Positions 40,001-42,316 of a stretch of DNA of 64,000 nucleotides are shown here, in pieces. The stretch is from Escherichia coli 042 (GTDB taxonomy: Bacteria > Pseudomonadota > Gammaproteobacteria > Enterobacterales > Enterobacteriaceae). Made by a program: the position numbers. The stretch's first letter is position 1; each line of letters starts with the position of its first letter. Location of the stretch: NCBI RefSeq assembly GCF_000027125.1, contig NC_017626.1; one strand, given 5' to 3'.

Positions 40001-42316
40001 ATCTTGTGGCGATCCTCAAAACGCTGGGGGCAGGGCGAGCGCAACTGCGTAAGCTAATCGTCGGTCAGTGGTTGATGGTGCTGGCGCTTTCAGCCGTTAC
40101 CGGCGGGGCGATAGGCCTGTTGTTCGAAAACGTGTTGATGGTGCTGCTCAAGCCCGTTCTGCCTGCTGCACTACCGCCTGCCAGCCTCTGGCCGTGGCTG
40201 TGGGCGCTGGGCACCATGACGGTCATCTCGCTGCTGGTGGGGCTACGACCGTACCGCCTGTTGTTGGCAACGCAGCCTTTACGCGTATTGCGTAATGATG
40301 TGGTCGCGAACGTCTGGCCGCTCAAGTTTTATCTGCCGATTGTCAGTGTGGTGGTTGTGCTGCTGCTCGCCGGATTAATGGGCGGCAGTATGCTGCTCTG
40401 GGCGGTGCTGGCGGGCGCGGTAGTGCTGGCTTTGCTGTGCGGTGTGCTGGGCTGGATGCTGCTGAATGTACTTCGCCGCATGACGCTGAAATCGCTACCT
40501 CTGCGCCTGGCGGTTAGCCGCCTGTTACGTCAGCCGTGGTCAACGTTAAGCCAGCTTTCGGCATTTTCGCTCTCCTTTATGCTACTGGCACTGCTGCTGG
40601 TGTTGCGTGGCGATCTGCTCGACCGCTGGCAGCAGCAGCTACCGCCAGAAAGCCCGAACTACTTTTTAATCAACATCGCCACAGAACAGGTTACACCGCT
40701 AAAAGCGTTCCTCGCGGAACATCAGATAGTCCCGGAATCATTTTATCCGGTGGTGCGGGCGCGGCTGACGGCGATTAACGACAAGCCGACAGAAGGCAAT
40801 GAAGATGAGGCGCTTAACCGCGAACTCAATCTTACCTGGCAAAATACGCGGCCCGATCATAATCCGATTGTTGCCGGTAACTGGCCGCCAAAAGCCGATG
40901 AAGTGTCGATGGAAGAGGGGCTGGCGAAACGCTTAAACGTTGCCCTCGGAGATACCGTGACTTTTATGGGCGATACCCAGGAGTTCCGCGCTAAAGTGAC
41001 CAGCCTGCGCAAAGTGGACTGGGAAAGTCTGCGGCCTAATTTCTATTTTATTTTCCCGGAAGGGGCATTAGACGGGCAGCCGCAGAGCTGGCTTACCAGT
41101 TTCCGCTGGGAGAATGGCAACGGCATGTTGACGCAACTCAACCGCCAGTTCCCGACCATTAGCCTGTTAGACATTGGCGCGATTTTAAAACAGGTCGGCC
41201 AGGTGCTGGAGCAGGTAAGTCGGGCGCTGGAAGTGATGGTGGTGCTGGTCACCGCCTGCGGTATGTTGCTGTTGCTGGCACAGGTGCAGGTGGGAATGCG
41301 TCAGCGTCATCAGGAGCTGGTGGTGTGGCGCACACTCGGTGCGGGGAAAAAACTACTACGCACGACATTGTGGTGTGAGTTCGCCATGCTCGGGTTTGTT
41401 TCTGGCCTGGTGGCCGCAATTGGTGCGGAAACGGCGCTGGCAGTGTTGCAGGCGAAAGTGTTTGATTTCCCGTGGGAGCCAGACTGGCGATTGTGGGTTG
41501 TGCTGCCGTGCAGCGGTGCGCTGCTGCTGTCGCTTTTCGGCGGCTGGCTGGGTGCGCGACTGGTTAAGGGTAAGGCGCTGTTCAGGCAGTTTGCGGGGTG
41601 ATGACAGGCGTTAGATTGCCTGATGCGCTACGCTTAACAGGCCCACGAGGATCGTGCAATATATTGATTTTGCAAGATTGTGTAGGCCGGATAAGGCGTT
41701 TACGCCGCATCTGGCATGAACAGTGTGCATTTTGGCAATAAATATGAAACCAACTGTCATGTCGGTTTTTTTAAAGGCCGAAGGTGGTAAACCTTCGGCC
41801 TTAGCTACGTTTCCTCAGTTATTCAATAAACTGACGGATCAGTTCCAGCAGCGCGATTAGCGCCTTAAGAACGATGAGAACTTTATCGAGAAAAGTTTTC
41901 ATCCGTTGCTCCCTTAAGGGAGAAAGACAATCACAGCTTACCCTTACGTTGCCTGTAACTATGATTTTCTTCATGTGCTAGATGAGGACTGCCTCTCTCC
42001 AAATTAGAGCACCAGAATCAGCACCACCTGTATCCTGACCAGGACTTAAAAGTACTTTTCCGCACTGCGGTAATCCCTTGAGGCAGTATCACTACTAGCG
42101 TCGGGATTGTATCGCCAACATAGCTGTTTGAATATGTAGGCATCCTGACTTATAATTCACTTGCTAGATGAGGACTGTTTCATTTCTACCCGGAACCACC
42201 AAGTCTTGGGCGGAAAAAATAAAAAAACCGACTGTCATGTCGGTTTTTTTATATCTGTATTCTGGTGCAACCATTCTGTTCTCACGACAATCGCCGTTTC
42301 AGAATACCGTCCATCA

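What the first reader, a model, noticed from the sequence alone, without database searches (positions are those of the whole stretch)
41740..42260. Candidate type I toxin-antitoxin pair (DinQ/TisB-like peptide plus divergent sRNA) at the Rhs-free ybbP-selU junction
The ~700-bp spacer holds a 27-codon minus-strand ORF (41819-41902) encoding MKTFLDKVLIVLKALIALLELIRQFIE, a single amphipathic/hydrophobic helix with a good Shine-Dalgarno. From memory it is strikingly similar in length and in its LIALLELIR core to DinQ, and in general character to TisB. About 260 bp away on the opposite strand is a near-consensus sigma70 promoter (TTGAAT-17-TATAAT, 42128-42156) whose predicted transcript ends at a canonical intrinsic terminator (42222-42250), giving an ~88-nt RNA. 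The first 16 nt of that RNA (42162-42177) are identical to 41976-41991, which places them in perfect antisense to the predicted 5' UTR of the peptide mRNA; a possible extended -10 for that mRNA (TGcTCTAAT) sits at 42003-42011 on the minus strand. This is the trans-antisense layout of tisB/istR-1, dinQ/agrB and zorO/orzO. I do not recall an annotated toxin at this locus, so it may be undescribed.
Basis: partly seen in the sequence, partly recalled or inferred. Interest (0 to 1): 0.85.

Follow-up and report, generated by a model that had tools for sequence, protein, structure and literature searches.

The report
Second DinQ/AgrB toxin-antitoxin copy
The ybbP-selU spacer holds a real small-toxin gene with an antisense-RNA antidote, but it is a second copy of the known DinQ/AgrB system, already labelled dinQ in public E. 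coli genomes, so it is an ordinary finding.

Summary
The reading as a DinQ-like type I toxin with a divergent antisense sRNA is correct. It is not undescribed. RefSeq annotates the ORF as dinQ. NCBIfam's DinQ model scores 40.9 bits (cutoff 30), and Rfam AgrB matches the sRNA at 48.1 bits (threshold 40). About 24% of complete E. coli genomes carry the module; sampled carriers also have the canonical gor-arsR dinQ. The exact peptide is on at least 1,000 public contigs. Kristiansen et al. 2016 defined dinQ-like (dql) genes, including chromosomal copies alongside dinQ.

The module is a ~570-bp block (about 41730-42302) missing from 'empty' ybbP-selU spacers. The 197-nt leader keeps the dinQ structural switch through compensatory changes.

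It differs from dinQ proper in four ways. It has no credible LexA operator, so 'damage-inducible' is probably a mislabel. It has one sRNA gene instead of two. Its cognate duplex is the weakest in the family. It carries a stump of an Agr-type terminator. Nobody has tested this locus experimentally.

The parts
41730..42302 (.). Whole dql/agr module: a ~570-bp block present here and absent from 'empty' ybbP-mnmH(selU) spacers
   Evidence: Alignment A3 against empty sites L004 (240-bp spacer) and L005 (140-bp spacer). K-12 has the rhsD island at this site instead.
41819..41902 (-). Toxin ORF, 27 aa plus stop: MKTFLDKVLIVLKALIALLELIRQFIE (DinQ family, 'KTxxDKVLIVLKAL...RQFI' subgroup)
   Evidence: NCBIfam NF041472 gives 40.9 bits against a cutoff of 30. 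BLASTP against K-12 DinQ gives 15/19 identities, E=3e-8. The exact sequence is on at least 1,000 contigs named DinQ.
41819..41974 (-). 51-aa ORF as annotated by RefSeq/PGAP (WP_001308457.1, 'dinQ'); probably over-extended at the N-terminus
   Evidence: There is no SD before the ATG at 41974. The conserved nucleotide motif GTGACAGGCA is read in different frames in K-12 and here. In K-12 only the 27-aa form is translated and toxic (PMC3567139).
41903..42099 (-). Inferred 197-nt 5'UTR of the toxin mRNA, homologous to the 194-nt dinQ leader
   Evidence: Alignment A1. K-12 numbering checked against the published elements. Fold z = -3.1. Family consensus structure with covariation.
42106..42111 (-). 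Inferred -10 (TACAAT) of the toxin promoter, with the start near 42099 seven nt downstream; the -35 is weak
   Evidence: It aligns column for column with the K-12 dinQ -10 TATGAT and the mapped +1 G. The consensus scan did not call it because the -35 is poor.
42080..42099 (-). Element 1 plus a (mRNA nt 1-20): pairs with the sRNA-target region to form the long-range S1 helix that locks the full-length mRNA
   Evidence: In the MFE fold, nt 1-20 pair with nt 104-121. The a/a' change GUUAG/CUAAC to GCUAG/CUAGC is compensatory.
41978..42002 (-). sRNA target including element 2 (GGAGAGAGGCAGU): 14 Watson-Crick pairs with sRNA nt 1-14, an 18-nt unbroken run counting G.U pairs, and about 24-25 pairs in all
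   Evidence: Full-length duplex -52.3 kcal/mol against shuffles at -27.0 +/- 3.4.
41909..41932 (-). Element 3 (GAUUGUCUUUCUCC) and the SD hairpin CUCCC-UUAA-GGGAG. The SD is closed in the full-length fold; element 3 re-pairs with element 2 when the 5' end is removed.
   Evidence: The hairpin is kept by double changes relative to K-12 (CUCCAU/AUGGAG to CUCCCU/AGGGAG).
41774..41802 (-). Toxin mRNA terminator hairpin, family-conserved together with the preceding GGAAACGTAGCTAAGG and the following CCUUUAA
   Evidence: The same element is in K-12 and Serratia.
41734..41773 (+). Second copy (83% identical) of the Agr-type terminator. It lies inside the module and is probably the 3' stump of a lost agr-type gene. 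On the + strand it could stop read-through from ybbP.
   Evidence: Repeat D1. Terminator scan. Absent from empty sites and from the Serratia relatives.
42128..42156 (+). sRNA promoter TTGAAT-17-TATAAT
   Evidence: It aligns with the agrA and agrB promoters.
42164..42252 (+). AgrB-family antisense sRNA (~87-89 nt) with a free 5' pairing region, an internal hairpin and an intrinsic terminator (42219-42252)
   Evidence: Rfam RF02891 gives 48.1 bits against a gathering score of 40, E=9e-7, full-length model match. Fold z = -2.8. Alignment with K-12 agrA and agrB.

Best explanation
This is a chromosomal paralog of the DinQ/AgrB type I toxin-antitoxin system, of the dinQ-like ('dql') kind. The minus strand makes a mRNA of about 330-360 nt that starts near 42099. 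Its 197-nt leader folds so that its 5' end (nt 1-20) pairs with nt 104-121, and the Shine-Dalgarno GGGAG is shut inside a small hairpin, so the primary transcript should not be translated. By analogy with dinQ, removing the 5' end frees element 2 to pair with element 3, which opens the SD and allows synthesis of a 27-aa single-helix membrane peptide. The divergent sRNA of about 88 nt (42164-42252), made from a near-consensus promoter, pairs through its 5' end with the element-2 region. That restores the closed SD hairpin and probably creates an RNase III substrate, keeping the toxin off. Shown here: homology of the toxin, sRNA and leader; complementarity; conservation and covariation of the fold. 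Inferred: transcription, 5' processing, toxicity and rescue. Unlike dinQ proper, the promoter has no LexA operator, so expression is probably not SOS-controlled.
For: The toxin passes the curated DinQ model at 40.9 bits against a cutoff of 30, and RefSeq names the gene dinQ. The sRNA passes Rfam AgrB over the full model length, 48.1 against 40. The leader aligns with the K-12 dinQ leader, giving the -10, the start and a UTR of 197 against 194 nt. The fold of the +1 RNA reproduces the S1 helix and the closed SD hairpin, and truncation gives the element 2:3 duplex. Across 7 family members 92.6% of cells are paired against 38-51% when slid, 15 of 47 pairs have changes on both sides, and 0 of 500 shuffles reach the observed values. 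The sRNA:mRNA duplex is -52.3 kcal/mol against shuffles at -27.0 +/- 3.4. The sRNA 5' end tracks the target sequence from locus to locus. The mechanism has been demonstrated for K-12 dinQ/agrB (PMC3567139, PMC5066626) and, with compensatory mutants, for plasmid dqlB/agrB (PMC12365149). The peptide and sRNA are identical in Escherichia sp. E1V33 at the same site.
Against: There are no expression or toxicity data for this locus. Over sRNA nt 1-30, the cognate duplex is the weakest in the family at -36.9 against -48 to -59 kcal/mol. That is close to K-12 AgrA x dinQ at -36.0, and AgrA does not protect against DinQ. However, the mismatches here are distal, whereas AgrA's are in the 5' seed. The toxin promoter has a poor -35 and the scan did not call it. 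The SD-accessibility calculation did not separate K-12 +1 from +44 either, so it cannot confirm the switch. The covariation set is small, and the structure was derived from the same sequences.
Confidence: 0.82

Rival explanations
1. The module is a decaying relic. It is homologous to DinQ/AgrB but no longer works as a toxin-antitoxin pair: the toxin is not expressed, or the sRNA no longer controls it.
For: It has the weakest cognate duplex in the family, with pairing degenerate beyond 18 nt. The toxin promoter has a weak -35. It has lost the LexA operator. It carries a truncated Agr-type terminator stump. Read-through and chimeric C-terminal variants exist in databases (P0012, P0019). The module is present in only about 24% of genomes.
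Against: The ORF is intact, and the exact peptide is found on at least 1,000 contigs and in a cryptic-clade Escherichia. The sRNA promoter is near consensus. The leader structure is maintained by compensatory changes specific to this locus. The 14-16 nt seed is perfect in both copies, although 4 of its positions differ from K-12.
Confidence: 0.12
2. One reading: the toxin mRNA starts just downstream of an extended -10 at 42003-42011, giving a ~95-nt leader with the sRNA site at its extreme 5' end.
For: The string TGCTCTAAT is present. K-12 dinQ also yields shorter 5' ends, at +44 and +125 (PMC3567139).
Against: The hexamer TCTAAT lacks the conserved A at -10 position 2, and the scan did not call it. 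The motif lies inside sequence homologous to the dinQ leader, where K-12 reads TGCTCTGGC. Sequence upstream to 42099 is conserved in structure, with covariation that would have no purpose if it were not transcribed.
Confidence: 0.05
3. The product is the 51-aa protein annotated by PGAP (41819-41974), not the 27-aa peptide.
For: RefSeq annotates the 51-aa form. Database homologs also carry N-terminal extensions.
Against: There is no SD before the ATG at 41974, while GGGAG sits 6 nt before the ATG at 41902. The upstream region is conserved at the nucleotide and structure level, but is read in a different frame in K-12. In K-12 only the 27-aa DinQ V is translated and toxic (PMC3567139). Kristiansen et al. 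note that Dql peptides are often annotated with a longer N-terminus. NCBI also holds the 27-aa form as a MULTISPECIES entry.
Confidence: 0.04

Closest known systems
DinQ/AgrB (with AgrA), E. coli K-12 gor-arsR locus
   Same: A 27-aa single-helix toxin with the ALLELIR core (15/19 identities). A long leader (194 nt in K-12, 197 nt here) with the S1 helix, the four-element switch and the SD hairpin. A divergent, non-overlapping ~85-nt sRNA whose 5' end pairs with the element-2 region. A conserved toxin terminator. About 69% DNA identity over the leader and ORF.
   Different: Different chromosomal site (ybbP-selU). No LexA operator: best score 6.0 bits against 25.0 and 12.1 in K-12. One sRNA gene instead of two, plus a terminator stump. 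A shorter and weaker duplex: an 18-nt run against about 32-34 bp. The peptide has 3 extra N-terminal residues and a shorter, charged C-terminus (…RQFIE against …RFLLQLLN). It is an accessory module, in about 24% of genomes, rather than near-universal.
dql (dinQ-like) genes, dqlA/dqlB groups of Kristiansen et al. 2016 (PMC5066626); T1TAdb DinQ/AgrB family (PMC8594479)
   Same: Defined as dinQ homologs on enterobacterial chromosomes and plasmids that share the leader and signature residues. [quoted passage not shown] All of this fits the present locus.
   Different: I could not see their figure or supplement, so it is not shown that this exact locus is among their 14. By peptide it is not DqlB: NF041473 gives 24.5 bits against a cutoff of 35.
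DqlB/AgrB of plasmid pOXA-48 (PMC12365149)
   Same: Same family and same layout. Toxicity, rescue by the sRNA, and dependence on pairing were shown experimentally, with compensatory mutations.
   Different: It is plasmid-borne and acts as an addiction module. It has a 35-nt complementarity. The peptide belongs to another subgroup. DNA matches are only about 71-80% identical over short stretches.
TisB/IstR-1, ZorO/OrzO, ShoB/OhsC
   Same: Trans-encoded divergent antitoxin sRNA. A long, structured toxin leader that is inactive until its 5' end is processed. A small hydrophobic membrane peptide.
   Different: No sequence relationship was detected here. There was no IstR hit, and the OrzO-P hit scored 24.1 bits against a threshold of 60 and lay on the wrong strand. 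TisB is LexA-controlled, and this locus probably is not.

Membership tests
DinQ/AgrB type I toxin-antitoxin family (including dql) | The toxin peptide matches the curated DinQ profile above its cutoff | tested here: met
   NF041472 toxin_DinQ gives 40.9 bits (27-aa form) and 38.4 bits (51-aa form) against a cutoff of 30. BLASTP against K-12 DinQ gives E=3e-8.
DinQ/AgrB type I toxin-antitoxin family (including dql) | A divergent, non-overlapping sRNA gene that matches the AgrB covariance model | tested here: met
   RF02891 gives 48.1 bits against a gathering score of 40, model positions 1-84 of 84, at 42164-42252(+).
DinQ/AgrB type I toxin-antitoxin family (including dql) | The sRNA 5' end is complementary to the leader region that contains element 2 | tested here: met
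   14 Watson-Crick pairs, extended with G.U pairs to an 18-nt run, and 22 WC plus 5 GU over 34 nt. The duplex is far beyond shuffles. It is the weakest cognate duplex in the family.
DinQ/AgrB type I toxin-antitoxin family (including dql) | A ~195-nt leader with the S1 long-range helix, the a/a' helix and the SD-sequestering hairpin (four-element switch) | tested here: met
   MFE fold. Element 2:3 re-pairing on truncation. Family consensus with 15 of 47 compensatory pairs, plus controls.
DinQ/AgrB type I toxin-antitoxin family (including dql) | Activation by 5' processing (+44 in dinQ) and RNase III cleavage of the duplex | not testable with these tools
   This needs 5'-end mapping and RNase III assays. 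The computed SD accessibility did not separate even the K-12 +1 and +44 controls.
DinQ/AgrB type I toxin-antitoxin family (including dql) | The peptide is toxic when overproduced and the cognate sRNA neutralises it | not testable with these tools
   No experimental data on this locus were found in the library.
dinQ proper (ortholog of K-12 b4613, 'damage-inducible') | A LexA operator overlapping the promoter, giving SOS induction | tested here: not met
   No CTGT-N8-ACAG site with 1 mismatch or fewer in 41600-42320. The matrix scan recovers the K-12 operators at 25.0 and 12.1 bits and those of other canonical loci at 22.6 bits. The best site here scores 6.0 bits, below the weakest training box at 12.4.
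dinQ proper (ortholog of K-12 b4613, 'damage-inducible') | Location between gor and arsR, with tandem agrA and agrB | tested here: not met
   This locus lies between ybbP and mnmH/selU and has a single sRNA gene. The sampled carrier genomes have a second matching place, and in Escherichia sp. E1V33 that second place is confirmed as canonical dinQ.
DqlB (plasmid-type dinQ-like toxin) | A match to NF041473 above its cutoff | tested here: not met
   24.5 bits against a cutoff of 35.
TisB/IstR-1 and ZorO/OrzO | The sRNA matches the IstR or OrzO covariance model | tested here: not met
   No IstR hit at E<=1. OrzO-P scores 24.1 bits against a threshold of 60, on the minus strand over the terminator only.

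The most novel reading that the evidence does not exclude
This paralog is a DinQ-family toxin that has been uncoupled from the SOS response. It would be expressed from a LexA-free promoter and held in check only by its own short-seed sRNA and the leader switch, so it would respond to a trigger other than DNA damage. It is one of three alternative occupants of the ybbP-selU site, the others being an empty spacer and the rhsD island. It might interact weakly with the canonical dinQ/agrAB RNAs in the same cell.
Probability: 0.35. Interest if true: 0.35.

Novelty: already known. Interest (0 to 1): 0.2.

Why it matters
The finding matters little as a discovery, because the family, its mechanism and this gene's annotation already exist. 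There are three modest practical points. First, the RefSeq name 'damage-inducible' is probably wrong for this copy, which lacks a LexA operator. Second, the antitoxin sRNA is not annotated in the RefSeq record I inspected, although Rfam detects it. Third, about a quarter of E. coli genomes carry two DinQ-type toxins, which studies of DinQ, SOS-linked persistence or membrane depolarisation in non-K-12 strains should take into account.

Tried and rejected
(1) The supplements of Kristiansen 2016 and of T1TAdb, which might list this exact locus, are not held. (2) A full-text search for the exact peptide string found nothing; the 'dqlA' hits were unrelated peptide strings. (3) The Pfam-A scan of the 51-aa form found no family, because the tool's copy lacks PF28061, the domain precomputed for all the homologs. 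(4) SD accessibility from partition functions as a test of the switch was dropped as uninformative, because it did not separate the K-12 +1 and +44 controls. (5) I considered the D1 terminator repeat as a target-site duplication and rejected it, because both copies lie inside the block that empty sites lack. (6) The 16-mer as a generic dispersed repeat was rejected. (7) The genome-contig scan with the 20-mer returned mostly chance hits in GC-rich genomes; only 8 enterobacterial loci were usable. (8) My LexA matrix was built from boxes recalled from memory, and one of them may be a near-copy of the dinQ box. That could inflate the K-12 control score, but it does not affect the low score here.

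Full report
Observation. The 27-codon minus-strand ORF at 41819-41902 encodes MKTFLDKVLIVLKALIALLELIRQFIE, and GGGAG lies 6 nt before its ATG. TTGAAT-17-TATAAT at 42128-42156 is the only sigma-70-like site the scan called in the spacer. A 14-bp stem followed by a T-run at 42219-42252 is a terminator. The 16-mer TGCTAGATGAGGACTG occurs exactly twice in the 64 kb, at 41976-41991 and 42162-42177, and no other site comes closer than 3 mismatches.

What it is. A megablast of the spacer against 5,426 complete E. coli genomes shows that RefSeq annotates the ORF, in a 51-aa form (WP_001308457.1), as 'dinQ: damage-inducible type I toxin DinQ'. NCBIfam's DinQ equivalog model NF041472 scores the 27-aa peptide at 40.9 bits against a cutoff of 30. 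The plasmid-type DqlB model stays below its cutoff, at 24.5 against 35. Rfam's AgrB model (RF02891) matches 42164-42252(+) over its full length at 48.1 bits, against a gathering score of 40. BLASTP against K-12 DinQ gives 15/19 identities, E=3e-8. Both the exact 51-aa and the exact 27-aa sequences are in public collections on at least 1,000 contigs each, under the DinQ name, and the 27-aa form is a MULTISPECIES Enterobacteriaceae entry. About 1,325 of the 5,426 genomes (24%) carry the core of the module at 95% identity or more. Each listed full-length hit shows a second matching place in its record. In Escherichia sp. E1V33 that second place is confirmed to be a canonical dinQ locus (L056), alongside a module with the identical peptide (L055).

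Literature. Kristiansen et al. 2016 (PMC5066626) defined 'dql' (dinQ-like) genes, grouped as dqlA and dqlB, on enterobacterial chromosomes and plasmids. [quoted passage not shown] T1TAdb predicted the matching antisense RNAs. A plasmid DqlB/AgrB pair was validated in 2025, including compensatory pairing mutants (PMC12365149). The supplements that would show whether this exact locus is listed are not held. No searchable text prints the peptide, and no paper in the library names a second chromosomal copy.

Anatomy. Comparison with 'empty' ybbP-mnmH spacers (L004 with 240 bp, L005 with 140 bp) shows that the module is a discrete block of about 570 bp, roughly 41730-42302. K-12-type genomes have the rhsD island at the same site and keep no trace of the module. 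I numbered the K-12 dinQ mRNA from the published landmarks. With +1 at L002 1983, every published element falls in place: element 1 at U16-C28, element 2 at G94-G106, element 3 at U167-U178, the SD at 184-187 and the GUG at 195. In the alignment of the two loci, the K-12 -10 (TATGAT) and its +1 G sit over the window's TACAAT (42111-42106, minus strand) and G 42099. That gives a 197-nt leader, against 194 nt in K-12. I therefore consider it a chance resemblance.

Mechanism. The full-length leader is predicted to fold with nt 1-20 paired to nt 104-121, which is the sRNA-target region. This corresponds to the S1 and a/a' helices of dinQ. The SD is closed in a CUCCC-UUAA-GGGAG hairpin (z = -3.1). 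When the 5' end is removed, element 2 (GGAGAGAGGCAGUC) re-pairs with element 3 (GAUUGUCUUUCUCC), which is the mutually exclusive pairing described for dinQ. RNAalifold on seven family leaders (the window, three Escherichia dinQ loci, Pantoea and two Serratia) independently recovers a/a', S1, SL2 and the SD hairpin, and 15 of 47 pairs show changes on both sides. In the controls, 92.6% of cells are paired at the true register against 38-51% when slid, and 0 of 500 shuffles reach the observed values. Two compensations are specific to this locus: a/a' GUUAG/CUAAC becomes GCUAG/CUAGC, and the SD hairpin CUCCAU/AUGGAG becomes CUCCCU/AGGGAG. The caveats are that the set is small and that the structure was derived from the same sequences.

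The sRNA start follows from the mapped AgrA and AgrB starts and from the spacing after the -10, and falls at 42164. The sRNA:mRNA duplex is -52.3 kcal/mol, against -27.0 +/- 3.4 for shuffles. In a common register, the sRNA 5' end tracks the target sequence in every family member, so the cognate pair is the best within each organism. However, this pair is the weakest cognate duplex in the family, at -36.9 kcal/mol for sRNA nt 1-30 against -48 to -59. It has 14 Watson-Crick pairs, then two G.U pairs and two more Watson-Crick pairs, and is degenerate beyond that. The value is close to K-12 AgrA x dinQ (-36.0), and AgrA does not protect against DinQ. AgrA's mismatches, though, lie in the 5' seed, whereas here the seed is perfect. 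The SD-accessibility calculation did not separate the K-12 +1 and +44 controls, so it is uninformative. Transcription, processing, toxicity and rescue remain inferred.

Differences from dinQ proper. (i) There is no credible LexA operator. No CTGT-N8-ACAG site with 1 mismatch or fewer exists in the spacer. A matrix built from classical SOS boxes recovers both published K-12 operators (25.0 and 12.1 bits) and those of other canonical loci (22.6 bits). The best site here scores 6.0 bits. It sits at the position of K-12's weak second operator and has one half-site destroyed. The boxes were recalled from memory, and K-12 served as the positive control. (ii) There is one sRNA gene rather than agrA plus agrB. 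(iii) A 40-nt copy of the Agr-type terminator (41734-41773, 83% identical) lies just beyond the toxin terminator. It is inside the module and is absent from the Serratia relatives, so it looks like the stump of a lost agr-type gene. (iv) The peptide belongs to a subgroup, K-[TA]-x-[LI]-DKVLIVLKAL-[IV]-ALLELIRQFI-[DE], that is also found in Shigella, Salmonella and Yersiniaceae. In Serratia oryzae the homolog lies in a different genomic context, so at family level this is a cassette. (v) The 51-aa annotation is probably over-extended. There is no SD before the upstream ATG, and the conserved leader nucleotides are read in a different frame in K-12.

Verdict. The element is nevertheless an already annotated member of a published family. 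The proposed toxin promoter is misplaced by about 100 nt, and the claim of possible novelty does not hold. What remains of interest is limited to the probable loss of SOS control, the short antitoxin seed, and the three-state polymorphism of the ybbP-selU site.

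Noticed in passing
L002 1860-2330; L035, L022, L038, L056 (canonical gor-arsR dinQ loci): Canonical dinQ loci come in several antisense 'specificity types'. 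The K-12 target (...GAGAGTTCTTATCTAAC) pairs with AgrB. In E. coli E69 (L035) the target reads ...GATAGTCGTCATCTAAC and pairs best with the proximal, AgrA-position sRNA: -51.5 kcal/mol, against -35.0 for K-12 AgrB tested on that target. L022 and E. whittamii (L038) carry the same target sequence. K-12 AgrA, which is reported as non-protective, may be the cognate antitoxin of another dinQ allele.
   Followed up: partly
window 41605-42310 compared with L003, L004, L005: The ybbP-selU junction has at least three states in E. coli: an empty REP-containing spacer of 140-240 bp, the ~570-bp dql/agr module, and the ~7-kb rhsD island that begins right after the ybbP stop. Which state is ancestral was not determined.
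   Followed up: partly
window 41734-41773: An extra Agr-type terminator copy (83% identical to 42212-42251) lies next to the toxin's own terminator. On the + strand it is a good intrinsic terminator that could block ybbP read-through running antisense to the toxin gene. Its origin is unexplained.
   Followed up: partly
window 41620-41725: REP-type palindromic elements lie downstream of ybbP. They give sub-threshold Rfam hits to naRNA4 and ES036 and account for the many matches per genome in megablast. L004 carries an extra ~100-bp REP-type insert here.
   Followed up: no
proteins P0012, P0009, P0019: Database variants of this peptide have read-through C-termini (…QFIEQLRKRS, …QFIETEET), and one has a DinQ-like tail (…IRQLLNN). 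The last could reflect recombination between the two paralogs.
   Followed up: no
window 30924, 31293, 31662: The same 16-mer, TTGTTTTCTGTCACAG, recurs at an exact 369-bp spacing, which suggests a tandem repeat of 369-bp (123-codon) units. It turned up by accident in the LexA pattern search.
   Followed up: no
window 42122-42141: The divergent toxin and sRNA promoters lie back to back. The sRNA -35 (TTGAAT, 42128-42133) occupies the place where the toxin promoter's -35 should be, so the two promoters may compete for RNA polymerase.
   Followed up: no
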